64,000 nt of DNA from an uncultured Candidatus Poseidoniales archaeon (GTDB taxonomy: Archaea; Thermoplasmatota; Poseidoniia; Poseidoniales; Poseidoniaceae): contig CAZPME010000008.1 of NCBI GenBank assembly GCA_964587885.1, forward strand, positions 1 through 64,000, in the 5' to 3' direction. The position numbers and the translations under genes were made by a program. This document shows, piece by piece, positions 19,419-63,280 of this stretch. The notes beneath the pieces were generated by a model. It was not told the DNA's origin, made no database searches, and was given only the letters and a program-made list of their open reading frames with translations. How positions within the stretch are numbered: position 1 is the first letter of the stretch; each line of letters opens with the position of its first letter.

Positions 19419-19476
19419 CTTACCCCTCCTCGCAAGTCAGAGAATCACTAATAGCGAAACCGGACTTAGACCTCAT

Positions 19477-35019: not shown

Positions 35020-35071
35020 CCGCTTATCAGCGACGCGAGAGATTCAAGGCCGTCCAATATTAGGCAAGTCT

Positions 35072-43463: not shown

Positions 43464-43528
43464 CCTTGGTTGCCGGCGATGGCCAAAGAACGTTATGTTT
43501 ACCCCTACTCCATTTTACATGTTTCGCC

Positions 43529-43547
43529 GGCCTCCCTACGGGAGGCC
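43529..43547. other. Perfect 8-bp GC hairpin GGCCTCCC-TAC-GGGAGGCC in the divergent rfcS / giant-gene intergenic region.
   Basis: Inverted repeat read directly; lies about 40 nt upstream of the giant-gene start codon. Confidence 0.3.
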
Positions 43548-43588
43548 TTAGGGAAGTATGATTATCTCTTATCACTTCCCGCAGAGTT

Positions 43589-46500
43589 GTGAGCCCTATG
43601 TCGACCGCGTCTAATTACCGAAACCGCCGACGTCAAGCATTGACGATTGTATTGCTATTTTTGCTAGCAGACTTGATTTCGCCATCAGCGATTCCAAGTT
43701 ATGAACTCGACCAAATCAATTCGCCGTCATTCGTTCAAATGAGTGATAACGCTAGTGCAGACAGTCAAATTTACAGTCTCAGTCAAAACACAAATTATGG
43801 TAACGAAGTTAGCGCGAGTATCGGCCCTGATGAAGTTGGACCAGGGGTGTCCAAAATGGTAATTTCATTCCCATTGAATTTTTCAGGTGCGGTGGATGTA
43901 GCCAGTGCAACAATGTATTTGGTGTGTACGACAGCTGCCGATGACAAAATTTCGACGCTTTTCGTAAGCGAATTAACAAATTCATTTGATGAAATGAATG
44001 TAACTTGGGTAAATTACAATGGTACAGCAACTTGGGCATCTCCCGGTGCAAGCGGCGCTAGTGATCATGGAGATTGGGAGCCACCACTTGTACAAACGAT
44101 GAATTCTACATTTAGTTTCAATATCACTTCCTTTGTACAATCTGCACTTTCCCGCGGCGCAAATTCAGTAGACTTGCTGATCGCAGCCCACGGTGCACAG
44201 TATTCCTGCTCGACCAAAGAGGAGTTGGTCCAAGCAAACCGTCCGCAAATTCTTTTTGTTTATGCTGCTAATTCACCGGCGGCAAGGGGTACTATCCTGC
44301 CTACTTTCGTCGAAGATGGTGACGCACTGATGACTGGTGATTTCATCTTAGCCGCTGAAACTCAGCCTACGATAACTTGGTCGAATCTATTAGGACAAAA
44401 TGTCGAAGTGCAATTGTCACTAGCGAGTGATTTCATGACTGATTCTGATTCATGGTGGTATTTTTCATCGCAGAATAATTTATCTTTCCAATTTTCCGGT
44501 ACTACGGGTCAAATGGAATTGCTAAGTGAAAATGAGCTTAGCAATGGTACGACGATGCATTATCGCATGCGTTCGACCAACTTGAACCAAGTTGGAGATT
44601 GGAGTTCCGGATATTTTCACCTTCCCGATTTGCAAGTTACCGATAATGGTAATCAAACTGCTTCGGTCAGCATTTACCCTGATGATTTGGGGTTGTCTGA
44701 AAAGGCAATAAGTGATACCTATTCCAATAATGCTCTTTCCGGCGGTAACGGTAATTACGGAGGTGATTCTACTGTATTGGTGGGAATGGACTCACCTTCA
44801 GAAGACCAATATGCCTATCACGGAATCAATCCGCATTTATGGGGTATGCACGATAATGCAACGATGTTCCAAGCTGATTTGGTACTTACCCGCAGCAGTT
44901 ACAATAACGATGCAGTAATATCATTCCATTCGTTTGACAATTCGGCATGGACCGAATCCGGTTTGACGATGAATAGTCAAGATGGCAGTACCGCTTGGAC
45001 TGATGGCGGCCGTTCAAATAAGGAAATGGCTGCAATAGATGCGATGTGGAGTAATCAAACCAACTCAGAATTCCGCGTAGATTTATTGACTCAAACTCAA
45101 GTGTGGCTCGACACTTCTTCAAGTACACCACTCTCGATTTTCTCGACAGTACGTGGCGAATACGATCAATATTCTTCTTCAACCAATGTTGAGTTTTATT
45201 CAAGCGAGGATAGTTCTCAAAGCAATTTGCCCTATCTTGAATTAATGTATGGATGGGGTAGTGGTACTTCTCCAACTGCTGTAGAACTGATTGACCCTGC
45301 CGATGGTGTAGGAGTTTGGACCCTAAATGACCACAACCTTTCGGGAAATACCACCCCTACCCTCACTTGGAATGGGTCTGAGGCCACTTCTCAGAGTCAT
45401 GATATAATTTGGCAGTTGTCAGAAGGACCTGAATTCCGCAATATCACTGCCGAAGTAAATACAGTAGAAGATAACGATTTCACTCCTGGTTCAGGGAACT
45501 ATTCACTCACCGGATTAGATGAAGGTAAAACATACGCTTGGCGCATGCAGCACGTTTCTTTTGAAGGTCACCACGGAGAGTGGACAACAAATTCTTTCTT
45601 CGTCCCTAGTGTCACCTCTACATGGCTCGGAGGAAACGATTACCAATTGACTCTTAGTTCAGGTAATTCTTCAGTTTCGGGACCTGATATGCCATATTGT
45701 ACCGACACCTACATTGATAGTGGTTCGCCGAATGATACCTATCCTGATGAGGGGGAAATTCAAGTTTCATACAGTACTTTTTCAGAGACTGCAATCCTCT
45801 TTGGATGTGATATGAATTCGCATTTCTTGCCTAGTGGCTATGCAGTTTCATATGCCAATATGCGCATGAAGTTGTCATTCCACGGAGGTAATCCAATCGT
45901 TGGTGCGTGGGATAATACCCAATCGAACTGGGTTGCTGAATCTGCCAATTGGAATACATTTGACGGAGTAAATAATTGGAGTCAAAGTGGTGCTAAAGGT
46001 AGCGAGCGCGGCTCATTGTTATCTAGCAACACGCTAACGTCTTCCTTCTCAAGTGGAGATTGGGTCAACTGGAATATCACCCTTAATGCTCAAGATGCGA
46101 TGCGCAGTGATGGTTCACTTGATTTCATTATCGGCATTGTAGGTGCTGGATCAGGTGGGACTCGCCAAGCATTATTCGACAGTAGCGAACAATCAACTTC
46201 TTCACGGCCAGAAGTGATATTGGTATATTCACCAGGTTCTAATGCTAAACCGAATAACCCAATTCCCCTTTCTCCGGCCAATGGTTCATGGTCAATTATC
46301 GATGGCATTGAACCAGCACCTGATGCGCGCCCGGTACTCAACTGGAGTTATGGAACTGGTGTTGCCGTAGGCGGTTGGTCTCTACAATTAGATACAACAA
46401 GCACGTTTGATAGTGGTAATTTGTTGAGTTTTGCCTCATGGAATGATAACGGATTTGACCTAACCAATATGTCCTATACTCCTCAACAGGATTTGAGCGA

Positions 46501-49500
46501 TGGCCAGATTTGGCATTGGCGAGTACGAGCAGTTTCAACCACAAATCAACTCGGTGATTGGTCGGCATTTTCTCATTTCTTACTTCCAGATATCACTACT
46601 TGGTTAATTGATAGCAATACCTCAGCGGTTGAATATCATCATCATGATGCTCTGCCATCATTGCACATTCCCGAATTTGAAGATACTTGGGTGAAAAATT
46701 CTGGCGCCAATAATGGCACATCTCAGGGCACTGACACGGTACTCAAAGTTGGAACCCTGAGTGACGGAAGTCGCGCAACAGGAATGTTACGCGTTCCATT
46801 GAGCGCCTTACCAAACCCTGCTAACGCCCACGTGCTAAAGGCGACCTTGAATCTCTATCCTGAATGGGGCTCATCAGAATCGCAGCATATTTCAATTCAT
46901 TCTGCAATGCAAGCGTGGAATTCTAGTGCTAATGGCACGACATATGATGGCGTTAATAATTGGAGTAGCGCAGGTGGTTTAGGAGCTACAGACAGTGGTG
47001 AAATGGTTGACGTGAATACTATAGTAGGGGATTCTTGGGCACAATATGATGTTACTGAATTAGTTCAAAGTGCTACATTAACGGGTAATAATCACCTCTC
47101 TATAATGCTGATAGGCGACGATGCTAGCGGCTTGGTAACTTTCACTTCAGTCGATTCTTCTAGCAACCGCCCATGGTTGAATATAACTTGGGCTACTGGT
47201 AATTCAAGTCAAGTTACTACCACCGGAAGTCCGAATAGTCCAAGTGCTGGCTCAATTCTTTGGGACACATCATCTCATGCTTTGATTCCTACGACAACAC
47301 CTACACTAAATTGGACTCATCCGAATGCTGGTTCAGTTGATGATTGGCGACTTTTCATCTGGAATAATGGCAGTGATGAGCGTGAAGGTTGGACTATACA
47401 CGATACCCGTGAATCCACCACCGGATTCAATATTGGCGCGCTATCGTGGACATCAACTAGTGTCCAAGAGGCCGGACGCACTTATCGCTGGTTTGTACAG
47501 CCTATTATTGACGACATTTACGGTCCGCGTTCCGCGTCATTGCATTATCATCTGCCAGCAGTAATGAGTGGGGAATTGAATTCCACTGATGCTTGGCTAA
47601 ATGTTGTTGAGGGCTCAATGGTTAACGATATCGCTTACCCTGAGGTAATGAGTGACACTTGGATCAACGAAGGCGGGCAAAATTTGAATTACGGAAATGC
47701 TGCAAATTTCACCGTAGGAACAAGTCCATCTTCATCCTCTCTTAGGTCAAAAGCCTTATTGGAAATCGATCTAAGTAATCTTCCGATTCCGCAACCATTT
47801 GATGTGCTTGAAGCAGAGTTGAAACTATACCGAGATGGTGGGCAACAATCGCAAATGACGGTAAGTATTAGCGATTTATTCCTCGCCTTTGACGAAAACA
47901 ACGCTACTTGGAATCAAGCTGATAATGGTACAAATTGGTCGATTACTGGAGCCAGTGGGCAATTAGATTCGGGCCTGCCTGTAGATATTGAGACGATAAC
48001 AGGTAGTGGCTGGTTCTCTTGGGATGTCAGTCAACTCGCTCAAGCGGCATTGGCACGCGGAGACCAAACCATGACTCTCTTGATTCAATCTGAAGAGCCA
48101 TTGAATGCCAGCAACAGTTTCCATACCTTTGCTAGTAGCAATAATATGAATGTGGAATTGCGGCCACAACTGAATTTGACCCTGCGCTCGGTCAACCAGT
48201 GGCTTCCCACCGATTCTTCGTCTCTATATCCGACCAATACTCAAACCATGTGGAATATGTCGGCTGACCTGCCTTCGCCAATGCACGACATTGTATTCAG
48301 TTGGAACTCAACCGATACCAATGCTACAGCACAGCATTTCCAGATGTCTTCTAATCCACGTTTCATAAATCCAGAACTATTCGCCATGTCAAACGATTCT
48401 ACGACATTAGACAATGGTACCTTTACGAATACCGGACAACGCTACTCTTACAACCATAGTACTGATTTGATGCCTATTGACGAATGGATATTTTGGCGTG
48501 TTAGGACTGTACAAGACTATCGTATCGGTAATTGGTCAATGGTCAATAAATTCCGCATGCCGGACTTTGAAGGTGAAGATGATGGAACCGGAAACCTGAC
48601 ATTAAATCTCAACCGTGGAACTGTCTTCACCAATACTTCTGTTTTACCTTTGGTCCCTGACACTACCCTTGATTCAAGCTCGTTAAGCACCAATTATGGT
48701 TCTTCCACCGCACTGAAACTTGGTGCAGGAGCAAGTGGTTCAGGAGAAGCGAGAATCCTCATTGAATATGACCTCAATGAATTACCCTTCCCTGCTAATA
48801 TGATCCCAACTTCAACCATTCTTACGTTGTATAGGTATGGAATTACGGGTGGTCAATCACTCACAGTTGCCGCTTATCCATGTTCTTCATTCTCAGAGTC
48901 TGGGGCCAGTTGGAATAATGCTCCGACTTGCTCGAGTAGTGAAATCACTCGGACTACTCTAGGAGTTGTTCCCCCGACAGGATACATGGAATGGGATATT
49001 ACCTCTCTCGCCCAATCAAATATCGCGGCAGGAAATCGAACATTAACCGTAATGTTAGCAGTTATTGGCACCCCTGGGGCAACTCATGAATTCCGCTCAA
49101 GCGAATATTCGTCAGTTGATGAGCGACCAAATTTGATCTTTGATTATGTCGATAATTCTCAAGGGATCACCCCACCTGCACAACCAACATTGCTTAATCC
49201 AATTGATGGTGATGTATTGTATGATGATAGCAATTGGATTCTCCAGTCTGCAACCCGCCCAGTATTGGAGTGGAATGCGGTTGCTAATGCTACCGATTAT
49301 ATTCTAACTATAGCAAATGCGACTGGGCAAACCAAATATCGTTCGTGGTCGACTAGTGGTTTTGGTAATTCTAATTTCACCTTGAGTACAGATTTAGCGG
49401 CTGGTGAATCTTATGAATGGTGGGTTCAAGCTGTAAATGGAAGTATTCCTGGTCCGTCGAGTAGTCGCTGGACATTCGCGATTGGAAATCCGATAAACAA

Positions 49501-52500
49501 CACTTACAATTCTGATAATACTTACACCTACCAAATTCGTAATGGAGAAGAAGTTCCAACTATCGGCCATGCCAGTATGATTGATTCAGTCATTGATGCA
49601 GCCACTCCAAATTCAGCATTAGAAGATACTAATTTAATGATTGGAAATGACTCAAATGGAGATGAAAAGCGTTCGATAATCGTCCTCGACCCAAGCCAAT
49701 TTCCACTTCCATCAGCGGCTAAGATTCATTCTGCAAGTGTTGGGTTATACATAGAAAATGTAAGGATGAATTCAGGCGTCCTTGTTACTAACATGAACAT
49801 AAGTGTTCATCCGATTATTACCTCTGGTTATACTCCCTTGGGCTCAACTTGGAATGAAGTTGCTAGTGGTTCAAGTTGGTCAGCGGCTGGTTTGCAGCCG
49901 GGAGTTGATTACGGCGCGGCAACTGGAAGTACGACTCTAGTTGCAACAGTCGGATTTGAGGGGTGGATTTGGCTCGACCTCTCACATTCGGGATTGGATT
50001 TGAACAATGCCCATGAATTTATTCTCATCGCTACGGGTCAAGCTTATCTTGATATTTCTCACAGCCAAGATAGTGATGTGGCGCACCGTCCGATAATGTT
50101 ACTCAATTATACTCATATTGACCACGTTACAATAACTCCAGGAAATGGTGCTAGCACTGATGCTGATACCGATTTGCAATATTCATACACAATGTATGAT
50201 GGAAATGGCACTCCAATCTCTGGAGTTATTGAGTGGGGTTCTACCTCTGGAACAATCGACAGCACGGGATTATTTGCTCCTGATCAAGCTGGAATGTGGC
50301 AAGTAAGTGCATGTTTCGGTTTGGTTTGTGACATAGTCACATTGTCGGTAACTTCTGGTTCACCAACCACGTGGGCTAATGTTTTCACTACCGATAGTGG
50401 TAGTTATACCATAGATGCTGACCAAGGGGTCGACTTTACTTTCACAATTTATGACCAGCATGGCAACGTTGTTTCTGGTCAAACCGTAACTGCTACTGCA
50501 ACTAACGGCTCGCTAACTGAGACTTCATCAGGTAATACCCATTCTTGGCATTGGGATGCTTGGGCTGTTGGCGCTCAAACCATAGAAGTAAATTGGGGTG
50601 CGCAGACACATTACCAACAGATAACCGTAGTAGCAGGACAACCGGTCTTGGTGACCATAGGTAACTGTGGTGATGATGATTTGAACGTACCCGCTGGTAC
50701 GACTTGTGCCTTTGATTGGGATGTTTTCGACTCCAAGGGCAATGATGTTGCTAAATCTGTATTGGGGCTTGTCACTTGGACGGCTGAAGAGCATAGCGGT
50801 AATGTGAGTCAAGGAAACTTTACTGCTGACAAGATAGGAACTTGGCAAGTAAACTTGACCAGTGCCTTTGGGCTTGATGCCAACACGACAGTTACAGTTA
50901 TCCATGGAGAGATTGATTACCTTGAGATAATTCCAAGTTCATTATTCGTCACAGCAGATGACCTCCTCTATCTCAACACTACTCGAGTAGATATTCGCGG
51001 CAATCGCTTGATGGTTGATTTGCCGGCTGAAAATTGGACCGTCATCAATGGTTGGCTAACTCCAGGTAGTAATGGCAGTCCTGCAATTTGGGAGCCTGAA
51101 ACCGTCGGTTCTAAGATATTGCGAGGTAATTATGGTACTGAGCAGACCGAATTAATTATCGCGGTATCGCATGGAATAATTTCCCAAATGGAAATCGACA
51201 TCACAACTCCAACTAATATGACTGCTGACGACCAAAGTCTGCTCAAATCATACGGTGTAGACAATAAGGGCAACCGTTGGTCAGTAAATGTCGAGTGGAT
51301 GATTTCTCAAGATCCATCCAACACCAATGATTGGCTTCACGGATACATTTCTGGTGAGGAAGAATCTACAGTGATTTTCAAACCGACTTATGTAGGAGAA
51401 TATAGTATTAGGGCGATTTACACTGAGTCCTCATCAGCATTAAATTTCATGATTTCAACCAATTATTCAATCACCCATGGGCAACTAGCTGATATTTCCT
51501 TTACCGCACCAAATGCATGTACTAGTGGGCCAGATGACGATCCACATTGGACCAATGATTGTGTATGGGAGATGACGGCAGATGAAAACATTCCATTTGC
51601 GGTTGAACTAGTTGACCTAAATGGAAATCAAATATCCGATGAGATCTTAACATGGACAGAAAATGGTAATGATGTATCTTCAGATATGGTGGATGATTCA
51701 TTTGTCTGGAGTGGAGTGAGGGATGAAGGTGAATATGTTATTCGCATTGCAAATGGGACTATTTTTGAAGAAATCACGGTAAATATTAGACATGGTAGAG
51801 CTCTAGTGGTTAACCATGTGGCAAGCGCAAATAGTGTTGAGGCCGGGCAATCATTGACGATCAAATTGACTGGAACAGATGTTGCTGGCAATACTTTCGA
51901 CCAAGATGTTACTTGGTCACATCCAACTGAAACAGTCGACAAGATTGGTGTCGGCGAATACATCTACAATTCCACCATGCAAGGAACGTATGACTTGGTA
52001 TACGAATTGCCGGGCGCCCAAACCGATATGTGGACGATTACTGTTGCTCACACCGACTTGTCACGCTTCGTTTTAGAACTTGATAAAATTTCACTTGAGC
52101 AACAGGCTGAAGTCACAATTACAATTAGTGCATTTGACCGCTTCGGAAATCCGGTGGCGGTTCCTACAGGCGATGCACTAATCGTCGAAGCGACTGGGCG
52201 CGGAACTGTATCATCGGTATCGGATGATACTACAAAATACAAGATTGAAACTCTAGATGAAGGTGAGCATACCATCACTGTGACAACTTTGGTAGCAGGT
52301 ATTATGGTAACATCTCAATCCACATACAACGTTACTGGAACCTTACCTGGATTCTTTGCTTCAGGAGGTCCACTATACTACGTGGCAGGTGGGTTGGGAA
52401 CATTTGTCATACTGGTTCTCTTCGTATTGGTAGTCGTTCTATTCCGCCGTAGCACTACTGGTTATGATGATGAAGACGATTGGGATGGGGATGACGAAGA

Positions 52501-52702
52501 TGAAGATTATCTTGAAGAAGATAAAGAACAGCCAGAAATCCCCGAAACCGAGGAAACCTCAACTTCTGAATCTTCAGATGGTGTCGAAGGTGATGATAGT
52601 TACCGTGTTGACGATGATGGCACTGAATGGTGGGAAGATGAAGCGGGCGTTTGGTGGTTCAAGGAAACTGGCGCAGAAGATTGGCAAGAATGGAATGAGT
52701 GA
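43589..52702 (+). CDS. Giant (3037 aa) membrane-anchored surface protein: signal peptide; about 7 DNRLRE-like domains alternating with FN3/Ig-like spacers; about 8 Big_2-like Ig domains; Gly-zipper TM; acidic cytoplasmic tail ending in a Trp-rich motif.
   Basis: Start GTG 43589 / ATG 43598 then 'ALTIVLLFLLADLISPSA'. Repeated 'DTW(V/I)..G...NYG....L.VG...(R/S)xLLxxDLSxLP.P......A.LxLY' units; Big_2-like 'GxxxxVxWxSTxGTIDxxGLFxA'; C-terminal 'YYVAGGLGTFVILVLFVLVVVLFRR' plus 'EAGVWWFKETGAEDWQEWNE'. Confidence 0.85.
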   Translation: MSPMSTASNYRNRRRQALTIVLLFLLADLISPSAIPSYELDQINSPSFVQMSDNASADSQIYSLSQNTNYGNEVSASIGPDEVGPGVSKMVISFPLNFSGAVDVASATMYLVCTTAADDKISTLFVSELTNSFDEMNVTWVNYNGTATWASPGASGASDHGDWEPPLVQTMNSTFSFNITSFVQSALSRGANSVDLLIAAHGAQYSCSTKEELVQANRPQILFVYAANSPAARGTILPTFVEDGDALMTGDFILAAETQPTITWSNLLGQNVEVQLSLASDFMTDSDSWWYFSSQNNLSFQFSGTTGQMELLSENELSNGTTMHYRMRSTNLNQVGDWSSGYFHLPDLQVTDNGNQTASVSIYPDDLGLSEKAISDTYSNNALSGGNGNYGGDSTVLVGMDSPSEDQYAYHGINPHLWGMHDNATMFQADLVLTRSSYNNDAVISFHSFDNSAWTESGLTMNSQDGSTAWTDGGRSNKEMAAIDAMWSNQTNSEFRVDLLTQTQVWLDTSSSTPLSIFSTVRGEYDQYSSSTNVEFYSSEDSSQSNLPYLELMYGWGSGTSPTAVELIDPADGVGVWTLNDHNLSGNTTPTLTWNGSEATSQSHDIIWQLSEGPEFRNITAEVNTVEDNDFTPGSGNYSLTGLDEGKTYAWRMQHVSFEGHHGEWTTNSFFVPSVTSTWLGGNDYQLTLSSGNSSVSGPDMPYCTDTYIDSGSPNDTYPDEGEIQVSYSTFSETAILFGCDMNSHFLPSGYAVSYANMRMKLSFHGGNPIVGAWDNTQSNWVAESANWNTFDGVNNWSQSGAKGSERGSLLSSNTLTSSFSSGDWVNWNITLNAQDAMRSDGSLDFIIGIVGAGSGGTRQALFDSSEQSTSSRPEVILVYSPGSNAKPNNPIPLSPANGSWSIIDGIEPAPDARPVLNWSYGTGVAVGGWSLQLDTTSTFDSGNLLSFASWNDNGFDLTNMSYTPQQDLSDGQIWHWRVRAVSTTNQLGDWSAFSHFLLPDITTWLIDSNTSAVEYHHHDALPSLHIPEFEDTWVKNSGANNGTSQGTDTVLKVGTLSDGSRATGMLRVPLSALPNPANAHVLKATLNLYPEWGSSESQHISIHSAMQAWNSSANGTTYDGVNNWSSAGGLGATDSGEMVDVNTIVGDSWAQYDVTELVQSATLTGNNHLSIMLIGDDASGLVTFTSVDSSSNRPWLNITWATGNSSQVTTTGSPNSPSAGSILWDTSSHALIPTTTPTLNWTHPNAGSVDDWRLFIWNNGSDEREGWTIHDTRESTTGFNIGALSWTSTSVQEAGRTYRWFVQPIIDDIYGPRSASLHYHLPAVMSGELNSTDAWLNVVEGSMVNDIAYPEVMSDTWINEGGQNLNYGNAANFTVGTSPSSSSLRSKALLEIDLSNLPIPQPFDVLEAELKLYRDGGQQSQMTVSISDLFLAFDENNATWNQADNGTNWSITGASGQLDSGLPVDIETITGSGWFSWDVSQLAQAALARGDQTMTLLIQSEEPLNASNSFHTFASSNNMNVELRPQLNLTLRSVNQWLPTDSSSLYPTNTQTMWNMSADLPSPMHDIVFSWNSTDTNATAQHFQMSSNPRFINPELFAMSNDSTTLDNGTFTNTGQRYSYNHSTDLMPIDEWIFWRVRTVQDYRIGNWSMVNKFRMPDFEGEDDGTGNLTLNLNRGTVFTNTSVLPLVPDTTLDSSSLSTNYGSSTALKLGAGASGSGEARILIEYDLNELPFPANMIPTSTILTLYRYGITGGQSLTVAAYPCSSFSESGASWNNAPTCSSSEITRTTLGVVPPTGYMEWDITSLAQSNIAAGNRTLTVMLAVIGTPGATHEFRSSEYSSVDERPNLIFDYVDNSQGITPPAQPTLLNPIDGDVLYDDSNWILQSATRPVLEWNAVANATDYILTIANATGQTKYRSWSTSGFGNSNFTLSTDLAAGESYEWWVQAVNGSIPGPSSSRWTFAIGNPINNTYNSDNTYTYQIRNGEEVPTIGHASMIDSVIDAATPNSALEDTNLMIGNDSNGDEKRSIIVLDPSQFPLPSAAKIHSASVGLYIENVRMNSGVLVTNMNISVHPIITSGYTPLGSTWNEVASGSSWSAAGLQPGVDYGAATGSTTLVATVGFEGWIWLDLSHSGLDLNNAHEFILIATGQAYLDISHSQDSDVAHRPIMLLNYTHIDHVTITPGNGASTDADTDLQYSYTMYDGNGTPISGVIEWGSTSGTIDSTGLFAPDQAGMWQVSACFGLVCDIVTLSVTSGSPTTWANVFTTDSGSYTIDADQGVDFTFTIYDQHGNVVSGQTVTATATNGSLTETSSGNTHSWHWDAWAVGAQTIEVNWGAQTHYQQITVVAGQPVLVTIGNCGDDDLNVPAGTTCAFDWDVFDSKGNDVAKSVLGLVTWTAEEHSGNVSQGNFTADKIGTWQVNLTSAFGLDANTTVTVIHGEIDYLEIIPSSLFVTADDLLYLNTTRVDIRGNRLMVDLPAENWTVINGWLTPGSNGSPAIWEPETVGSKILRGNYGTEQTELIIAVSHGIISQMEIDITTPTNMTADDQSLLKSYGVDNKGNRWSVNVEWMISQDPSNTNDWLHGYISGEEESTVIFKPTYVGEYSIRAIYTESSSALNFMISTNYSITHGQLADISFTAPNACTSGPDDDPHWTNDCVWEMTADENIPFAVELVDLNGNQISDEILTWTENGNDVSSDMVDDSFVWSGVRDEGEYVIRIANGTIFEEITVNIRHGRALVVNHVASANSVEAGQSLTIKLTGTDVAGNTFDQDVTWSHPTETVDKIGVGEYIYNSTMQGTYDLVYELPGAQTDMWTITVAHTDLSRFVLELDKISLEQQAEVTITISAFDRFGNPVAVPTGDALIVEATGRGTVSSVSDDTTKYKIETLDEGEHTITVTTLVAGIMVTSQSTYNVTGTLPGFFASGGPLYYVAGGLGTFVILVLFVLVVVLFRRSTTGYDDEDDWDGDDEDEDYLEEDKEQPEIPETEETSTSESSDGVEGDDSYRVDDDGTEWWEDEAGVWWFKETGAEDWQEWNE

Positions 52703-52778
52703 TTTCCCCTCTTGTAAAGAGGGGAACTTTTCTGCGTCGACTTCATTTGTGATGCCTCCCCTCGTCGCGTTGGTCGAA

Positions 52779-55460
52779 ATGTCGTTTGCGAAAAAGCATC
52801 GAGTATTGCCGACTACAATTGTCGTGTTTTTACTACTCTCAACTCTAATTACTGTGGTCATTCCTTCCACTAGTGCTGGCACCGTAGACCGTATCGAAAT
52901 CGACCAACAGCCCCCCATAATGCTTTCAGCAGATAGTCAAATGCAATTTACTGCAACAATGTATGATTCTTCAAATAATACCCTTTCGGAAATTGTTGAG
53001 TGGAGTGCTACCAATGGGTCAATCGACGGAGCAGGTTTGTTTACCCCATGGGCAACAGGGAATGTGTCTATCAGCGCAAATTCTGGGGTGGCATCGACAT
53101 TTGTCAACATCAGTGTTGAAGCAGGATGGCCCAGTTCCCTTACCATAGAATCGAATCAATCTGAAATCGGTGTAGATTCAACCGCTCAATTGACTGCCTT
53201 ACTTGCCGATGCTCGCGGTAATGAAGTTCAAGGCCACGCCTTGACTTGGTCTCCTTCCCAAGGTACAGTAAATGAGACAGGAGTTTGGTTTCCCGCTAGT
53301 GTTGGTGTAGCAAGCATTGAAGTGCATTGGGGTGAACTCTCGGCGACAATGAACATCACGGTAATTACCGGTCAACCTGCAAATTTGATACTCCCAACTG
53401 GTCTATCGGTACGCTATGGCCAGAGCATTACTATCGTGCCAGAAATTTATGATTCGCATGGTAATCTATTGTCTCTCGAAGATGCTGGTAGTCTGCAGTG
53501 GGCTGCAGATAGTGGTGTGATTTCTCAAACTGGGTCATTTACGGGTAATGCCGTCGGGATTTGGAATATTTCATGTTCAACTGCAAATGGATTATTCGCT
53601 ACAGTTGAAATTTCTGTAATCTCCGCAGCAATTGAGAGTTTGGAATTAGTTGCAGAAAACCGAGTATTCCGGGCTGATGAAGCGGTTGAAATTAGAGTCA
53701 TTCGAAGCGATGTTTACGGAAACGTCGAGGATATTTCTACCCCACTTTCAAATTGGTCATACCAATCGGGAGCACTTAGGTATGGAGAAAATGCTACTGA
53801 ATGGCTACCCACCGTAGTCGGCAATTGGACTCTTAGTGTTGTTAGTGAAGGATTTACTGCGAGCATCACAATTGAAGTCGTACACGGTTATGCAATTGAA
53901 TTATTATTGGTTACAGAAAATCAGAGAGTTAGTGCTGATGACGATGCAGTAATCCATATGCAAGCCCGTGATATTCGCAATAATCGTTGGATAGTTACCG
54001 GCACATGGGAAGCAGAAAATAGCCTTGCAGAATCGTGGCTTGCCTCGTTTGGGACATGGGCAAACTTTGCCGCTACTAAGACGGGAGAATGGCAAATAAC
54101 TGGTAGTTGGTTTGATGAGGAACAACAACAAATATTCTCTGACAATGTCACAATTGAAGTTTATGCTGGTGAATTATCAACCATTATTTTGCAGGGAGAT
54201 GGCGCCACAGTTTCAGCCGACGAGGTGCTAGATTTAGCGCCGACAATGTTTGATTCAGATGGCAATCAAATCGGCACGGTCTTGCTAAACTGGACTGTTG
54301 ATGGAGAAGACAAAACTACTGATTTCAGACTTCATCGCGGTGTCTATTATCCTTATTCGGTTGGGTTGCACGAAATCCGCGCCCAAGCCGCCTCAGCCTA
54401 TGCCAGTGTGATGATTCAGGTAACTCATGGTCAGGCACGCACATTAAGCATCAGTGTAGCCAACAATCTGTCGATCAATTCAGGCGAGGAAGGAGAGATA
54501 ACATTCACAGTTTACGCTCAAGATTTATCCGGAAATTCCTTCTTAGTCGACGAATTGACTTGGGATATTCCTGAATATGCTGGTGAGATTAGGGCTGGAG
54601 GCGATAGTGGTGAATGGATATTAAGCGGAAAGAAAGCCGGTGATTGGCGTTTCACGCTATATTCGGGAGATGCTCAATTTGACCTTTTGGTCAAAGTTAA
54701 TGCTGGTTTAGCGGCACGTATTGAAGTTGTCATTTCTTCGGATTATTATCATCAAGGTGACGAGATGATACTCGATGTGAGGGTTTATGATTCATTCAAC
54801 AATTCTCTCAAAGTAATACCTTCTGATATGACGGTATCCTCTACTGCCGGCCCAGCAAGTCACGTCAGCGAGGGTAGTTGGAAAGTGATGATGGATACAG
54901 GCGGTAGTGACCACGCTGTAACCGTACGTTATGATGAGTTAACCGAACAGAAATTCTTCGATGTACAAGGGGCCCTCTTAGGGGGTGCATTAGGTTCCTC
55001 TGATGCCGTAGTCCTTGGCGGTACGATGTTCATGGCCTTGATTCTCATTTTTCTTGTTTTAGCAATACGACGCGGACGTCGAGATGAAAATGCCACCGAA
55101 GGAGAGAAGCACTCACCTATTCTAGGTGATTCTACCCTTTCATCACAACCACCTGCGTCTACAGTTTCAGCTCAGCCGCAGGAAAACCAGCCTGAGGCGA
55201 CTGAAACTTCACAACCGGGCCAGCCTCAATCTGGTTCAACCTCTCCAGCCTCCACTTCCTTAGATACTGCTTCGGCTGCTTTGGAAACTCCCGCGCCAGC
55301 CGACCCAGCCAAAGAGGCTGCTCAAAGGGCCAAAGCCACAGGCGTTATGGTTGCAGCCGAAGGTACAACTCAGGGTCAATCGGGATGGTATTACGACACT
55401 ACTGGAACGTTGACGAATTGGGAAGTCGATGCTGAAGGAAGGTGGAATAGGATACAATGA
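52779..55460 (+). CDS. Large (about 893 aa) membrane-anchored surface protein: signal peptide, about 9 Big_2-like Ig domains, Gly-zipper TM, P/Q/S/T-rich cytoplasmic tail ending 'GQSGWYYDTTGTLTNWEVDAEGRWNRIQ'.
   Basis: ATG 52779 ('MSFAKKHRVLPTTIVVFLLLSTLITVVIPSTSAG') chosen because the track's 52464 start overlaps the upstream gene; Big_2-like repeats; 'LLGGALGSSDAVVLGGTMFMALILIFLVLAIRRGRR'. Confidence 0.8.
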   Translation: MSFAKKHRVLPTTIVVFLLLSTLITVVIPSTSAGTVDRIEIDQQPPIMLSADSQMQFTATMYDSSNNTLSEIVEWSATNGSIDGAGLFTPWATGNVSISANSGVASTFVNISVEAGWPSSLTIESNQSEIGVDSTAQLTALLADARGNEVQGHALTWSPSQGTVNETGVWFPASVGVASIEVHWGELSATMNITVITGQPANLILPTGLSVRYGQSITIVPEIYDSHGNLLSLEDAGSLQWAADSGVISQTGSFTGNAVGIWNISCSTANGLFATVEISVISAAIESLELVAENRVFRADEAVEIRVIRSDVYGNVEDISTPLSNWSYQSGALRYGENATEWLPTVVGNWTLSVVSEGFTASITIEVVHGYAIELLLVTENQRVSADDDAVIHMQARDIRNNRWIVTGTWEAENSLAESWLASFGTWANFAATKTGEWQITGSWFDEEQQQIFSDNVTIEVYAGELSTIILQGDGATVSADEVLDLAPTMFDSDGNQIGTVLLNWTVDGEDKTTDFRLHRGVYYPYSVGLHEIRAQAASAYASVMIQVTHGQARTLSISVANNLSINSGEEGEITFTVYAQDLSGNSFLVDELTWDIPEYAGEIRAGGDSGEWILSGKKAGDWRFTLYSGDAQFDLLVKVNAGLAARIEVVISSDYYHQGDEMILDVRVYDSFNNSLKVIPSDMTVSSTAGPASHVSEGSWKVMMDTGGSDHAVTVRYDELTEQKFFDVQGALLGGALGSSDAVVLGGTMFMALILIFLVLAIRRGRRDENATEGEKHSPILGDSTLSSQPPASTVSAQPQENQPEATETSQPGQPQSGSTSPASTSLDTASAALETPAPADPAKEAAQRAKATGVMVAAEGTTQGQSGWYYDTTGTLTNWEVDAEGRWNRIQ

Positions 55461-55469
55461 GGTGCGAGA

Positions 55470-58304
55470 ATGCGCAGAATATGTATCATTATCATCGCCA
55501 TATTACTGTTGTCGGTATTTACTACGGACCCAAAATTATTACAATTGGAAAACCCAAGAGATTTTGCTTTGCCAGGTTGCCCTGAAGAGCCCGCTGCTGT
55601 GTCAATAGAAATCACGCATTCTGGTTCTGGTTCGGTTCCAGCCGACCAACATTTGCAATTGACTGCTATTGTCAAAGACTCCAGTTCCCAAACACTTGGC
55701 GTTTTTCCAACTTGGGGAGTATCGAATGGTTCAATCACCTCAGATGGATTATTCACACCATTAGCAACTGGAGAGGTAGAAGTGTGGGCGTGTATCGGTG
55801 AGGTCAATCAGTCGAAAACTCTCACAGTGTTACAAGGTGAGACGGTCTCCGCAGAATTACAATTGTCTGATTATCAGATTACTTCCGATGAAGTTGTGCA
55901 ACTCTTGCCCAAGAAAATCGATAGCAAAGGAAATCGGGCTGATACCTTTGTCCCGACTGAGAATTTTTCCTTACCAGTGGGTAGCAATATCTCAGGTGGT
56001 CAAATATTGAATTGGTTTCCTGGTCCAGTTGGAAATCATACAATTTCTGCAAATGTATTGGGCTATTCGGTAAGTGTTCAGGTCAACGTTTCTTTTGGGC
56101 AAGCGGTGGGGATTGGGATTGAATCATCGTCAAATGAAATAACCTCGGATCAATCGCTTGAATTAGCGCTATCAATTTTGGACGGCAAGGGAAATACTCA
56201 ACCAATTATTGGTGAATGGTACTCAAGAAATAATACCGAATTGCCGCTATCAATAACCAATACGAGTGCATTAGTCGAAGGAAATGTGGCTGGAATATGG
56301 CGTGTAATTGCCAATTATTCTGGTGCCGAGACCAATGGCTCGACCTGGACTACCTATCGCGATATTACCGTAATACATGGTGCCTTAACGGCGACAAGGA
56401 TTGACGGATTCATCATTAGTCGCAGTGGCCAAGGTAATGACCTTGGACAACTTAGCGGCACTCTCCAAATGAATTCAGATGATCAATTAGTTTTATCACC
56501 GCGCCTTGAAGATGCCGACGGGAACATTCTCCCAACTACTGGATTAACTTGGAAATTGGAATCCGACAACATCGCATTTCCCGAAACTTCGTCTAACAAC
56601 TCATTTACCTTCTCACCGGTGCAAACTGGAAATTATATTGTGACTCTAACTCCTGCAGAGGGCATCCCCGAGCGTTTGACTATTGAGGTTAGGCATGGAG
56701 AAGCTGAAGCGATTGAAGTGTATTCAGGGGCTAGTGAAAACCTCGTGGTTTCAGTAGGTCAAAATCTAAGTTTTGAGGTGTTTGGTGTCGATAGAGACGG
56801 CAATAATTTCCCCTTGGATGTCGAATGGTTTATTCCCGAACACACGGGAAATATCAGCAATGGTTCACTTGGAGTGGGAAATTATGTCTTTACTAGTTCG
56901 CGTGACACTCCAATTAGAATACACACATTAAAAGCAATAACAGCACTCGGAAAACACGATGTTCTTGTCGATGTTAGAATTGGCATATTGCATCATTTAC
57001 AGATTGATTATTCGCCATTGGAAGGTGTTCAGGGTGAAGAGTTACAGATTACTATCACCGGAAGAGACCTAAATGATAATCAAATTCCGATTGCCTTGGA
57101 TGATGTAATTTTGACCTCATCGGCGGGAACTGCCGAATATAGGAATGGCAAGCATTATCTTTACCTTGAGGAGAGTGGAGTACAACATCAGATAACCGCT
57201 GAATACGAAGAATTGCCGCCAGCAATGGTATTTATCGATATTCAAGCGACGATTTTTGGTGGAGTCCTAGGTTCGTCGGAAACGGTTATCATCGGGGGGA
57301 TTGCGATATTATCGGTGATATTACTCGCTCTCGCTGTGATGATTTACAAGATATCGGGCCGGCGAAAAAAGAGTGATGATGAATTAATTGAGGAGATGGT
57401 ACAAACTAATGAAACATCACAATCTCCAGAATTATCTTCACCTGAATCTATTGGAGATTCATCGGGACTTAGGCCTGAAACTGAAATTTCCTTGCCTGTA
57501 ATAATGCCATTGAATCTAGTACCACCACCACCCCTAGCAAATATGCCAGCAATCGCATCTGTACCACAATCAGCAATGGTCCCACCAGTTGCCCAGCCCT
57601 CTCAGCAAATATCTCATGGTGGATTGCCTCCTCCCCTACCTGCTCCAATGTTGGCTCATCCACCCGCACCCCAATCAGCAACCTCTCTTTTGCCACCAGT
57701 TGTTCCAACTTCCATGCCTGCAGGAAACATGTTTCAGCCTCACCCACAGGAATCACCTCAAGAGGTAATGGTAACCCAACCCCAAGCAGAAGTAGACCCA
57801 AACTCACATACTCCAGAACTTCAAGTTCCAACCCAATCACTATTGCCAACATCACAAGAATCCGATTTAGGTCAAGCAACGATTGATTTGTCAGATTCAC
57901 TTTCTGCGTTGGGGCCTATAGGCATGGTTGAGGTATTGGATGAACCAATTACTGAAGCAGAACTACCAATTGAAACTGAGCAACAAGCCCAAGAACAATC
58001 CGCGCTAGAAAATGAAAGTGAACCGGAAACTGAGCCTGAATCACCTGCTGTAGCCGATATTGAAGACCCTTTCCCAGCCCCTTTATTGGAAACCGATGGC
58101 GGCTGGGGTGATGATGACCCGTTCGGAGATTGGGGTAGTGGTGTGGCCAATTCACGGGCCCTTGGCTTGATTGATACCTTCAATGGGCCAATGTCGAATG
58201 ATGGAGTACTTCTAGAGCCGGAACAAGGTACCATTCGTGGTCAATCGGGTTGGTACCGAATGACTGATGGAACAAGGGTTGAATGGAAGTACCCAACTCA
58301 ATAA
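55470..58304 (+). CDS. Large (944 aa) membrane-anchored surface protein, a paralogue of the preceding gene: signal peptide, about 7 Big_2-like Ig domains, Gly-zipper TM, long proline-rich cytoplasmic tail ending '[21 protein letters not shown]'.
   Basis: '[17 protein letters not shown]' signal; '[25 protein letters not shown]' Big_2 motif; '[40 protein letters not shown]'; 10-nt gap to the upstream gene. Confidence 0.85.
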
Positions 58305-59122
58305 GATTCGTCTTGACTGGGGAAATCACCCGAACGCACATCAGTACAAAATTGATTCAAAGCCCCTTCGATTTGTTCCTCTAGATTTAGGTAGCGGCGC
58401 AGGAAACGTGGGCTGAAATCAGTTGTAATACCTAACATGTCGTGAAGTACGAGAACTTGACCGTCGCAATCGTTACCGGCGCCAATGCCGATAGTTGGAA
58501 TATTGATCGCTTCAGAAACTTGTTTCGCTAGCCCAGCGGGTATTTTTTCTAGTACAATAGCAAAACAACCAGCAGTTTCCAATGCCTTTGCATCGGCAAT
58601 TAATTTCTCAGCCTCTTCATCTTCCTTAGCCCGTACTGTGTAGGTACCAAATTTGTAAATTGACTGGGGGGTAAGGCCAAGATGCCCCATGACTGGTATG
58701 CCCGCAGATAATATTCTCTTTACAGACTCACCAACTTCAGAACCTCCTTCAAGTTTTACAGCATGTCCTGATGATTCTTTCATTATTCGAATTGCCGAAT
58801 CAAGAGCGATACGTGAATTCCCTTGGTAGGTGCCGAATGGCATATCTACGACGATAAGAGCCCGGTCGACAGCACGTTGAACACATTGAGCATGGTAGAT
58901 CATTTGGTCGAGAGTAATCGGTACAGTAGTGTCGTGACCAGCCATCACGTTTGCAGCCGAATCTCCAACCAAAATCACGTCCACACCTGAGCGGTCGACG
59001 AGTTTGGCTAGAGAGAAATCATAGGCTGTTAGCATGGTGATTTTTTCACCAGCCTGCTTCATCTCCTGCAGGGTTTGCGTAGTAACTTTACGGGCTGCGG
59101 AATGAACAGACACCTCTCTCAC
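58298..59122 (-). CDS. panB: 3-methyl-2-oxobutanoate hydroxymethyltransferase (ketopantoate hydroxymethyltransferase, PanB).
   Basis: '[53 protein letters not shown]' is collinear with the KPHMT family. Confidence 0.85.
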
Positions 59123-63173: not shown

Positions 63174-63280
63174 GTGATTCAGTCTCTCGAAAGGGCGACC
63201 ACCCTTGAGCCTGCCCCCTCCCATACAAGCCAAAGTCATCTCAGCGAAGTGCCTAAACCAAACCACTTTGAGCGTGTCTC

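What the first reader, a model, noticed from the sequence alone, without database searches (positions are those of the whole stretch)
43589..58304. Three consecutive giant surface-protein genes sharing a common anchor architecture
Genes 43589-52702 (3037 aa), 52779-55460 and 55470-58304 lie head-to-tail with gaps of 77 and 10 nt, so they are probably co-transcribed. All three are built from Big_2-like Ig repeats; the first also has about 7 DNRLRE-like domains. All three end with the same module set: a glycine-zipper TM ('GGxLGSSxxVxxGG...' or 'AGGLGTFVIL...'), an Arg/Lys stop-transfer, a low-complexity cytoplasmic tail of 100-330 aa, and a short Trp-rich terminal motif. This is neither a PGF-CTERM nor an LPXTG-type anchor. 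The cytoplasmic tails are long and carry a conserved end-motif, which suggests the proteins are docked from inside the cell (to a cytoskeletal or envelope partner, or as a sorting signal) rather than only tethered. This would be an undescribed surface-display system in an uncultivated archaeon.
Basis: partly seen in the sequence, partly recalled or inferred. Interest (0 to 1): 0.8.

Follow-up and report, generated by a model that had tools for sequence, protein, structure and literature searches.

The report
Surface adhesins with conserved cytoplasmic end-domains
Three neighbouring genes of a marine group II archaeon (Poseidoniales) encode giant membrane-anchored surface proteins whose inner ends are small, highly conserved folded domains of a family not found in Pfam, NCBIfam or the PDB; the same domain occurs in cytoplasmic proteins of marine eukaryotes, so these surface proteins are probably held or organised from inside the cell.

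Summary
Genes g1 (43589-52702), g2 (52779-55460) and g3 (55470-58304) are type I membrane proteins. Each has a signal peptide, a paralogous Ig-like stalk, one TM helix, Arg/Lys after the helix, a disordered tail of 85, 130 or 319 aa, and a Trp-rich end. g1 also carries 7 DNRLRE/CBM96 domains.

The "end motif" is a folded mini-domain of two sequence types.
- Type A (g2, shortened in g3): a helix plus a 3-stranded sheet, AF2 pLDDT 96.
- Type B (g1): a small beta-meander.

The g1-g2 pair lies next to RFC in about 70-80 Poseidoniales species. The type A end domain is the best conserved part of g2: 59% mean identity, against 40% for the ectodomain and 24% for the linker.

Pfam, NCBIfam and PDB searches found no family and no known sorting signal. 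Type A also occurs in tandem copies in TM-less eukaryote-type proteins with IQ, EF-hand, PH, PDZ and EML-propeller domains. This fits a cytoplasmic interaction role.

The shared architecture comes mostly from paralogy. Only one non-homologous carrier turned up, an S8 protease. No partner is known, so docking is inferred. I rate it a new variant of a known kind, with moderately high interest.

The parts
43589..52702 (+). g1: giant type I surface protein (3037 aa). Order: signal peptide, 7 x (spacer + DNRLRE/CBM96) head, Ig-like stalk, TM helix, acidic tail, type B end-domain.
   Evidence: ORF, translation, NCBIfam DNRLRE x7 at E 6e-95, Pfam CBM96. Orthologs hold the same position in about 66 species loci.
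43637..43693 (+). g1 signal-peptide hydrophobic core (aa 17-35), preceded by RNRRRQ.
   Evidence: Hydropathy scan.
43700..50104 (+). g1 head: seven repeat units of about 325 aa, each ending in a DNRLRE/CBM96 domain. Unit ends fall at aa 217, 546, 872, 1193, 1524, 1845 and 2166. Boundaries are approximate.
   Evidence: The founding CBM96 member binds alginate (PMC9971899).
50117..52378 (+). g1 membrane-proximal stalk (aa 2177-2930), collinear and homologous with the whole g2 ectodomain.
   Evidence: BLASTP E 2e-64, 27% identity over 803 aa, running into the TM helix.
52388..52444 (+). g1 TM helix core (aa 2934-2952), preceded by the conserved GFFxxGGxLYYxG juxtamembrane motif and followed by RR.
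52445..52594 (+). g1 cytoplasmic linker (aa 2953-3002), extremely acidic (YDDEDDWDGDDEDEDY...).
52595..52699 (+). Type B end-domain of g1 (DSYRVDDDGTEWWEDEAGVWWFKETGAEDWQEWNE).
   Evidence: 58 distinct type B ends were extracted from related loci and sit at the C-terminus of the g1 orthologs. The HMM hits only g1 in the window, E 4e-15. AF2 gives pLDDT above 90 for the last 35 aa, with 4 short strands.
52704..52733 (+). Hairpin (10-bp stem TTCCCCTCTT/AAGAGGGGAA) plus CTTTTCT, 2 nt after the g1 stop. Possible terminator, attenuator or RNA-stability element.
   Evidence: It is not conserved in 70 related loci.
52779..55460 (+). g2: 893-aa type I surface protein. Order: signal peptide, Ig-like stalk, TM helix, linker, type A end-domain. 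It has one ortholog per Poseidoniales species.
54957..55010 (+). g2 conserved extracellular juxtamembrane motif FDVQGALLGGALGSSDAV.
   Evidence: Invariant or near-invariant columns in A3. Conserved across 69 distinct orthologs. Shared with g3.
55011..55067 (+). g2 TM helix core (aa 745-763), followed by RRGRR.
55068..55301 (+). g2 cytoplasmic linker (aa 764-841), rich in P/Q/S/T/E and hypervariable among orthologs.
   Evidence: Linker mean pairwise identity is 0.24 and its length ranges from 42 to 216 aa.
55302..55457 (+). Type A end-domain of g2 (DPAKEAAQRAKATGVMVAAEGTTQGQSGWYYDTTGTLTNWEVDAEGRWNRIQ).
   Evidence: AF2 pLDDT 96: a helix plus a 3-stranded sheet. It is the most conserved part of the protein, 0.59 identity. 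It sits at the extreme C-terminus in 79 of 80 loci.
55470..58304 (+). g3: 944-aa paralog of g2, with a long Pro-rich tail and a shortened type A end-domain. It is present in only about 15-17 of 80 related species loci.
   Evidence: BLASTP against g2 E 2e-42.
57288..57344 (+). g3 TM helix core (aa 607-625), preceded by [12 protein letters not shown] and followed by YKISGRRKK.
57345..58199 (+). g3 cytoplasmic linker (aa 626-910): 47 Pro in the 319-aa tail, with acidic stretches.
   Evidence: The ortholog in L005 is also Pro-rich.
58200..58301 (+). Shortened type A end-domain of g3 ([34 protein letters not shown]); the last strand is missing.
   Evidence: hhalign of the g3 family against type A: probability 97%, E 2e-11. 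HMM hit E 2e-3 within the window.

Best explanation
The locus encodes three paralogous type I membrane proteins of a Poseidoniales (marine group II) archaeon.

Outside the cell, each has a stalk of bacterial-Ig-like repeats. g1 adds a head of seven DNRLRE/CBM96 modules, so it is most likely a glycan- or particle-binding adhesin. A single helix crosses the membrane.

Inside the cell, a flexible, acidic or Pro-rich linker of variable length ends in a small, autonomously folding domain. This is type A in g2 and g3, and type B in g1. I propose that these end-domains are cytoplasmic protein-protein interaction modules. Held on a flexible leash under the membrane, they would dock the surface proteins to an internal partner or scaffold, or to each other, and so position, cluster or mechanically couple them.

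Shown: the gene structure, the paralogy, the conservation pattern, the predicted fold, the absence of known sorting signals, and homology of type A to domains in TM-less eukaryote-type proteins.

Inferred: the inside topology (from sequence rules), the glycan-binding role (from family membership), and the docking function (from anatomy and domain context; no partner is known).
For: Architecture and topology:
- Signal peptide, one TM helix, Arg/Lys directly after it, and tails of 85, 130 and 319 aa.
- N-glycosylation sequons are about 1.6-2.4 times enriched in the ectodomains and at expectation in the tails.

The end-domain is the selected part:
- Among 70 g2 orthologs, mean pairwise identity is 0.59 for the module, 0.48 for the TM region, 0.40 for the ectodomain and 0.24 for the linker. 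Linker length runs from 42 to 216 aa.
- The module always ends the protein, 31-35 aa from 'GT' to the stop.

The modules are predicted to fold:
- Type A has pLDDT 96 from only 24 sequences.
- Type B has pLDDT above 90 over 35 aa.

Conserved locus:
- RFC(-) | g1 | g2 is found across both Poseidoniales families.

Cytoplasmic context elsewhere:

The tail domains are exchangeable:
- A full-length g1 ortholog in the same synteny (32% identity over 2939 aa) carries type A instead of type B.
- An unrelated S8-protease/PA14 surface protein carries type A.

No known signal or family:
-.
Against: - No binding partner was identified, and no experiment exists.
- Topology rests on hydropathy and the positive-inside rule, not on a dedicated predictor or on data.
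- Nearly all archaeal carriers share the same stalk. Conservation of the tail could therefore reflect any function tied to this one family, such as assembly or turnover, rather than docking.
- The window's g3 lacks the last strand of type A, and some g3 orthologs end in a different motif. The requirement is therefore relaxed for g3.
- The eukaryotic origin of the TM-less carriers is inferred from their domain content and exon-like gene fragments. No taxon was assigned.
Confidence: 0.55

Rival explanations
1. Self-assembly modules. The end-domains bind each other (A-A, B-B, A-B, or several single 'blades' closing into a propeller-like ring). This would cluster g1, g2 and g3 into one multi-subunit surface complex, with no separate cytoplasmic partner.
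For: - g1 (type B) and g2 (type A) are an almost invariant gene pair.
- The type B model is a 4-stranded meander. Its only weak structural and sequence neighbours are single beta-propeller blades, including designed self-assembling propellers. Type A weakly resembles WD40 blades.
- In eukaryote-type proteins, type A occurs in tandem arrays of 2-7 copies.
- The Pro-rich g3 tail could be a ligand for Trp-rich sheets.
Against: - A lineage exists in which the g1 ortholog carries type A and no g2 follows. An obligatory A-B pair is therefore unlikely.
- No multimer prediction could be run.
Confidence: 0.22
2. C-terminal sorting or processing signal, in the manner of PGF-CTERM/archaeosortase, LPXTG/sortase or rhombosortase substrates. 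The TM helix and tail would be recognised and removed, and the protein re-anchored or released.
For: - The module sits at the C-terminus.
- A conserved small-residue motif lies just outside the TM helix: GG.LGSS in g2 and g3, GFFxxGG in g1. It could be a protease site.
- The window's g1 contains a literal PGF.
Against: - The known tripartite signals end within a few basic residues of the TM helix (my own knowledge of these families). Here 85-319 aa follow, ending in a confidently folded domain.
- NCBIfam gave no sorting-signal model hit at E up to 0.01.
- The Pro of PGF is present in 1 of 66 distinct orthologs. There is no LPxTG near any C-terminus.
- The same domain occurs in TM-less proteins.
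- The tail is the best-conserved part of the protein, which is unexpected for a discarded peptide.
Confidence: 0.06
3. Signalling or regulatory tail. The end-domain binds a small ligand or ion, or a calmodulin-like protein. It would transmit or gate information between substrate binding outside and the cytoplasm, rather than tether the protein mechanically.
For: - The Gly-rich loop GT.QG.SGWY is nearly invariant from archaea to eukaryote-type proteins.
- The eukaryote-type carriers combine it with IQ motifs and EF-hands.
- An amino-acid permease with a C-terminal EF-hand pair is a conserved neighbour of the locus.
Against: - Purely contextual: no ligand site has been identified.
- There is no enzymatic or output domain in the tails.
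- Neighbourhood with the EF-hand permease may be simple conserved gene order, and it is lost in L087.
Confidence: 0.12
4. The tail is extracellular, because of reversed or re-entrant topology, and the Trp-rich end is a cell-surface or glycan-binding repeat similar to choline-binding or GW modules.
For: There is superficial sequence resemblance of G-W-Y-Y-D..G to cell-wall-binding repeats, and a weak hit to the staphylococcal amidase GW repeat (E 0.44).
Against: - An N-terminal signal peptide plus one TM helix puts the C-terminus inside.
- Arg/Lys clusters lie on the tail side.
- Sequons are not enriched in the tails.
- The homologous domains sit in TM-less proteins with IQ/PH/PDZ architectures typical of cytosol.
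- The PDB hit is not significant.
Confidence: 0.03

Closest known systems
Archaeal C-terminal anchor signals (PGF-CTERM/archaeosortase A) and bacterial LPXTG/sortase, PEP-CTERM and GlyGly-CTERM signals
   Same: C-terminal location. A conserved short motif lies just outside a single TM helix, and basic residues follow the helix. All are found on large surface proteins.
   Different: Those signals end a few residues after the helix and are removed (my own knowledge of the families). Here 85-319 residues follow, ending in a conserved folded domain. No NCBIfam model hit was found and PGF is not conserved.
Eukaryotic adhesion receptors such as integrins and cadherins (functional analogy only)
   Same: Type I single-pass topology, a repetitive Ig-like or cadherin-like ectodomain, and a flexible cytoplasmic tail whose conserved end is proposed to bind an internal adaptor.
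   Different: No sequence or fold relationship. The partner is unknown. The archaeal tail ends in a folded mini-domain rather than short linear motifs.
DNRLRE/CBM96 surface proteins (archaeal disaggregatase and S-layer-type proteins; alginate-binding CBM96 of an alginate lyase, PMC9971899)
   Same: The g1 head has seven bona fide DNRLRE/CBM96 domains.
   Different: The described members are enzymes or wall proteins. No TM-plus-tail-domain cassette was reported in the CBM96 paper read here. Glycan specificity of the g1 modules is untested.
Bacterial Ig-like (Big_2 / LigB / intimin-type) adhesin stalks
   Same: The g2 ortholog profile matches LigB-like and Hoc-like Ig domains, and distant homologs carry Big_1/Big_2.
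   Different: Pfam scores for the window proteins are below threshold. Anchoring here is by a C-terminal TM helix plus a cytoplasmic domain.
WW domains, DUF2510-like 'GWY' motifs and single beta-propeller blades (small Trp-rich beta-meanders)
   Same: Size, a 3-4 stranded antiparallel sheet, conserved Trp/Gly spacing and a cytoplasmic setting. The weak structural neighbours are propeller blades.
Pfam LPD23 (PF18838)
   Same: A sub-threshold match over about 20 residues around G.SGWY in g3 and in one eukaryote-type protein.
   Different: Only 1 of 24 modules matches, at E 0.11. It never reaches the gathering score.

Membership tests
PGF-CTERM / archaeosortase substrates | Conserved Pro-Gly-Phe motif immediately before the C-terminal TM helix | tested here: not met
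   g1 has a literal PGF at aa 2920, but only 1 of 66 distinct g1 orthologs keeps the Pro (most have MGF, GGF or AGF). g2 and g3 have none.
PGF-CTERM / archaeosortase substrates | The protein ends within a few basic residues after the TM helix, and matches the NCBIfam/TIGRFAM signal model | tested here: not met
   Tails of 85, 130 and 319 aa follow the helix. No NCBIfam sorting-signal hit at E up to 0.01.
PGF-CTERM / archaeosortase substrates | An archaeosortase gene is present in the genome | not tested
   Only a 64-kb window is held, and no such gene was looked for in Poseidoniales genomes.
LPXTG / sortase substrates | LPXTG motif followed by a TM helix and a short positively charged C-terminus | tested here: not met
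   The only LPxTG is at g3 aa 354, about 250 aa before the TM helix. There is none near any C-terminus.
DNRLRE / CBM96 domain proteins (g1 head) | Significant match to NF033679 / PF24517 above the curated cut-off | tested here: met
   NF033679 E 6e-95, 315.9 bits against cut-off 34, 7 stretches. PF24517 E 3e-54, 183.6 bits against cut-off 26.
DNRLRE / CBM96 domain proteins (g1 head) | Carbohydrate (alginate-type) binding | not testable with these tools
   Binding was shown only for the founding member (PMC9971899).
Bacterial Ig-like domain, group 2 (Big_2) | Pfam PF02368 match above the gathering score | tested here: inconclusive
   g2 scores 18.1 bits and g3 17.1 bits against cut-off 22.8. 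Ortholog P0004 carries a precomputed PF02368 hit. The ortholog profile hits LigB-like Ig structures at E 4e-4.
WW domain | Pfam PF00397 match, or structural superposition on solved WW domains | tested here: not met
Type A end-domain family (defined here) | Core ..G[VI][ML].A..GT.QG..GWY..(loop)..W.V...G.W.. with a preceding helix; profile match | tested here: met
   g2 E 1.6e-23 and g3 E 2e-3 against the Poseidoniales HMM. g3-family against type A hhalign probability 97%.
Type A end-domain family (defined here) | g1's end (type B) belongs to the same family | tested here: not met
   hhalign A against B: probability 1.5%, E 0.035 for a single comparison. The predicted secondary structures differ: helix plus 3 strands against 4 strands.

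The most novel reading that the evidence does not exclude
The type A domain is a membrane-cytoskeleton or scaffold adaptor module shared between Poseidoniales and marine eukaryotes, by ancient descent or horizontal transfer. In the eukaryotes it sits in proteins with IQ, EF-hand, PH, PDZ and EML domains. Through it, and through the analogous type B, the giant glycan-binding adhesins g1 and g2 would be physically coupled to an intracellular structure. That would be an integrin- or cadherin-like outside-inside linkage in a planktonic archaeon, possibly Ca2+/calmodulin-regulated.
Probability: 0.15. Interest if true: 0.85.

Novelty: new variant of a known kind. Interest (0 to 1): 0.62.

Why it matters
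Poseidoniales are among the most abundant planktonic archaea, and none has been cultured to my knowledge. How they attach to algal particles and what their cell envelope looks like is unknown; the two MGII genome surveys I checked did not mention this locus.

This locus is an order-wide, syntenic pair of very large surface proteins. Its best-conserved part is a cytoplasmic mini-domain. That points to an internal organiser of surface adhesins, a kind of transmembrane coupling that I did not find described for archaea.

The work also defines a compact, confidently folding domain family that Pfam, NCBIfam and the PDB searches did not cover. The family links these archaea with calmodulin- and cytoskeleton-type proteins of marine eukaryotes. 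This gives concrete reagents, two domains of about 40-50 aa, for partner fishing.

Tried and rejected
- **WW domain / DUF2510 idea (from memory).** No Pfam hit at E up to 10, and no WW domain among the structural matches.
- **GW/SH3b cell-wall repeat.** Only one non-significant PDB sequence hit, E 0.44.
- **LPD23.** Only 1 of 24 modules matches, at E 0.11.
- **Type A and type B as one family.** hhalign probability 1.5%.
- **PGF-CTERM.** Rejected because the Pro is not conserved and the tails are long.
- **A general sorting tag on many surface proteins.** Four other TM-anchored proteins in the window lack the modules. 13 of 14 archaeal carriers tested share the g2 stalk.
- **Viral carriers.** None in IMG/VR.
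- **Conserved terminator between g1 and g2.** The hairpin is specific to this genome; 11 of 70 relatives show any stable fold.
- **Searches that gave little.** The search for homologous proteins with the short profiles returned only short gene fragments, so it said little about architectures. The afdb50 library was not available. Cluster look-up gave no organism names for the eukaryote-type proteins. A literature search for the motif strings found nothing relevant.

Full report
**1. What is in the sequence**

Three head-to-tail ORFs on the + strand occupy 43589-52702 (g1, 3037 aa), 52779-55460 (g2, 893 aa) and 55470-58304 (g3, 944 aa). The mechanical ORF of g2 reaches back to 52464. The spacers are 76 nt and 9 nt.

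A hydropathy scan finds exactly two hydrophobic segments in each protein:
- an N-terminal signal-peptide core;
- one helix near the C-terminus, at g1 aa 2934-2952, g2 aa 745-763 and g3 aa 607-625.

Each helix is followed directly by RR, RRGRR or GRRKK, and then by a tail of 85, 130 or 319 aa. The tails are acidic or Pro-rich and contain no Cys. N-glycosylation sequons are enriched in the ectodomains (71 against 45 expected, 15 against 6, 14 against 6) and are at expectation in the tails. All of this fits an N-out, C-in type I topology. It rests on sequence rules, not on a dedicated predictor.

**2. The ectodomains**

- The g1 head has seven DNRLRE/CBM96 domains: NCBIfam NF033679 gives E 6e-95 with 7 stretches, and Pfam CBM96 gives E 3e-54.
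- These sit in seven units of about 325 aa, each ending in an '..RP.L..' motif.
- The founding CBM96 binds alginate. DNRLRE domains were first noted in archaeal disaggregatase and S-layer-type proteins (PMC9971899).

Pfam Big_2/Big_1 hits in all three proteins are below threshold. Other evidence supports Ig-like repeats: a profile of g2 orthologs matches solved LigB-like and Hoc-like Ig domains, and distant homologs are Big_1/Big_2 proteins.

The three proteins are paralogs in their membrane-proximal part:
- g2 against g3: E 2e-42.
- The last 937 aa of g1 against all of g2: E 2e-64, collinear into the TM helix.

The shared "anchor architecture" is therefore, in the first place, a duplicated stalk-TM-tail cassette.

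**3. The end "motif" is a folded domain of two kinds**

Orthologs of g2 down to 30% identity keep a block of about 45-52 aa at the very C-terminus. The linker before it is unalignable. The block reads ...A..AK.tGVMqAapGT.QG.sGWY.D..g.l..W.V...G.W.R...

AlphaFold2, using only 24 sequences, gives pLDDT 96: a helix (residues 2-13) plus a three-stranded sheet. I call this type A.

g3 carries a shortened type A, ending [33 protein letters not shown]. The g3 family aligns to type A with hhalign probability 97%.

g1 ends differently: DSYRVDDDGTEWWEDEAGVWWFKETGAEDWQEWNE. This is type B. One search extracted 58 distinct type B ends from the related loci, and they are conserved at the C-terminus of the g1 orthologs. 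AF2 predicts it as a four-stranded meander, with pLDDT above 90 over the last 35 residues. Types A and B show no detectable sequence relationship.

Within the window, only g2 and g3 match the type A HMM and only g1 matches the type B HMM. Four other surface proteins in the window have C-terminal TM helices but short or unrelated tails.

**4. Distribution in archaea**

A scan of one genome per GTDB species with the type A profile found 98 relatives, and 80 loci were kept. All are from Poseidoniales MAGs of both families. The single exception is a contig binned as a "Yoonia" (bacterial) MAG, which is probably mis-binned.

- In 79 of 80 loci the module is the extreme C-terminus of a g2 ortholog, after a TM helix and a 93-268 aa tail.
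- In about 66-70 loci the upstream gene is the g1 ortholog ending in type B.
- A g3-like gene follows in only about 15-17 loci. In one lineage it ends in a third Trp motif, LPQGWTMAQWsHYGEEWLKNQS.
- Synteny with the RFC small subunit upstream, and with panB, an EF-hand amino-acid permease and LigB genes downstream, is conserved.

Among 70 g2 orthologs, mean pairwise identity by region is:

| Region | Mean pairwise identity |
|---|---|
| End module | 0.59 |
| TM region | 0.48 |
| Ectodomain | 0.40 |
| Linker (42-216 aa, 30% Asp+Glu) | 0.24 |

The end-domain is thus the most constrained part of the protein, carried on a leash that is free to vary.

**5. Wider distribution**

An exhaustive HMMER search of 1.84 billion representative proteins found 340 proteins at E up to 1e-3 and 106 at E up to 1e-10. 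They fall into two classes.

*Archaeal type.* These have a signal peptide, an ectodomain, a TM helix, a tail and one terminal module.
- 13 of 14 such proteins tested share the g2 stalk.
- The exception is a 2738-aa Peptidase_S8/PA14/Laminin_G_3 protein.
- A full-length g1 ortholog (32% identity over 2939 aa) sits in the same RFC/GatD/carboxyltransferase synteny on a 68%-GC, 3.0-Mb contig. It carries type A instead of type B, and no g2 follows it. The tail domains are therefore exchangeable.

*Eukaryote type.* These have no TM helix and 2-7 tandem modules, often each preceded by an IQ-like helix. They combine the module with:
- IQ motifs, up to 16 in one protein;
- a PH domain;
- PDZ plus EF-hand domains;
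- EF-hands;
- an EML-like WD40 propeller.

Some lie on contigs with exon-like fragmentation.

My search profile contained four such sequences, so I repeated the test with an HMM built from the 69 archaeal modules only, scored at the full library size. The eukaryote-type proteins still score E 5e-32 to 1e-10 for multi-copy proteins and about 1e-6 for single-copy ones. The homology is therefore not an artefact of the seed alignment.

The organisms behind these sequences could not be named. No viral contig carries the module.

**6. Comparison with known families**

- No Pfam family matches type A, type B, the third motif, the linkers or the eukaryote-type repeat, even at E 10. LPD23 appears once, at E 0.11.
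- NCBIfam gave no sorting-signal model hit for the three proteins at E up to 0.01.
- PDB sequence searches are empty or non-significant.
- g1's literal PGF is not conserved: 1 of 66 distinct orthologs keeps the Pro. There is no LPxTG near a C-terminus.

The conserved Gly-rich segments lie just outside the hydrophobic core and contain charged residues. They are FDV..LLGG.LGSS in g2 and g3, and GFFxxGGxLYYxG in g1. They are juxtamembrane motifs rather than a glycine-zipper TM helix.

**7. Transcription**

g2 and g3 are separated by 9 nt with a GGTG just upstream of the ATG, so they are very probably co-transcribed.

Two nucleotides after the g1 stop lies the strongest terminator-like element of the region, a 10-bp stem followed by CTTTTCT. 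It is not conserved in relatives; most of them have short spacers. Co-transcription of g1 with g2 is plausible for the order but uncertain in this genome.

**8. Interpretation**

The best-supported reading has four parts:
- g1, g2 and g3 are type I surface proteins.
- g1 is a multivalent glycan or particle adhesin.
- g2 is an order-wide companion of g1.
- g3 is an accessory paralog.

In this reading, their cytoplasmic end-domains act as protein-protein interaction modules on flexible leashes. Five observations support it:
- the topology;
- the conservation pattern;
- the confident fold predictions;
- the exchangeability of types A and B;
- the occurrence of type A in TM-less eukaryote-type proteins with calmodulin- and scaffold-type domains.

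Whether the partner is a separate cytoplasmic protein, the tails themselves (self-assembly) or a regulatory ligand cannot be decided with the tools at hand. A cleaved sorting signal and an extracellular tail are both unlikely.

Its claim of a general surface-display system is too broad.

Noticed in passing
window 59174-60844 (- strand): An amino-acid permease with a C-terminal EF-hand pair (Pfam). The same fusion is a conserved neighbour of the g1/g2 locus in L005 and L006. EF-hands on an archaeal transporter are unusual. It is also curious because the eukaryote-type relatives of the tail domain carry IQ and EF-hand motifs.
   Followed up: partly
window 52704-52733: A 10-bp hairpin plus CTTTTCT lies 2 nt after the g1 stop and is the strongest terminator-like site in 43300-58600. 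It is specific to this genome and is not conserved in 70 related loci.
   Followed up: yes
L016-L086 (g2 orthologs), first ~30 aa after the TM helix; window g1 aa 2953-2975: Many Poseidoniaceae g2 orthologs carry an acidic-aromatic juxtamembrane motif, roughly D(Y)W(E/D)DE(F/Y)E(E/D), 8-12 residues after the TM helix. The window's g2 lacks it, and g1 has YDDEDDWDGDDEDEDY. This may be a second conserved cytoplasmic feature.
   Followed up: partly
L005 12700-15210; L013, L014; P0013 and P0158 tails: g3 orthologs of one deep-water lineage end in a different Trp motif, LPQGWTMAQWsHYGEEWLKNQS, instead of type A. A similar GW(S/D)DEQI..YE element sits in the middle of Thalassarchaeaceae-type g2 tails. 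No Pfam match was found.
   Followed up: partly
L087 8001-17132 (3.0-Mb, 68% GC contig): A full-length g1 ortholog (P0166) sits in the same RFC/GatD/carboxyltransferase synteny. It has a type A rather than type B end-domain, and no g2 gene follows it. This suggests tail-domain swapping and a possible ancestral one-gene state.
   Followed up: partly
L088 8001-16217: A 2738-aa Peptidase_S8 + PA14 + Laminin_G_3 + GH115_C surface protein with a TM helix, a tail and a type A end-domain. It was the only carrier tested whose ectodomain is unrelated to g1-g3.
   Followed up: partly
L089 3-6183; L001; L002-L004; P0083-P0100: Eukaryote-type proteins with 2-7 tandem type A modules, combined with IQ motifs, PH, PDZ plus EF-hand, or an EML-like WD40 propeller. 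Some lie on intron-like fragmented contigs, and the organisms are unknown.
   Followed up: partly
window 62-8131, 13848-16352, 19339-23991, 34988-37870: Four further large predicted surface proteins. Three have a C-terminal TM helix and short tails, and one has Cadherin_5/Big_9 hits. None carries a type A or type B module. The window is unusually rich in giant envelope proteins.
   Followed up: partly
window 60895-62307 and 62274-63266 (- strand): Two adjacent LigB-type extradiol dioxygenase subunit genes, one of them fused to a RidA/L-PSP domain. The pair is conserved beside the locus in L005 and L006.
   Followed up: no
window 41224-42195 (+ strand); L087 5836-6756: A conserved 306-323 aa protein with no Pfam family lies between GatD and RFC, just upstream of the locus. 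It ends in a Trp-rich stretch, PWTNSAEWDWTF. Any relation to the tails is unknown.
   Followed up: no
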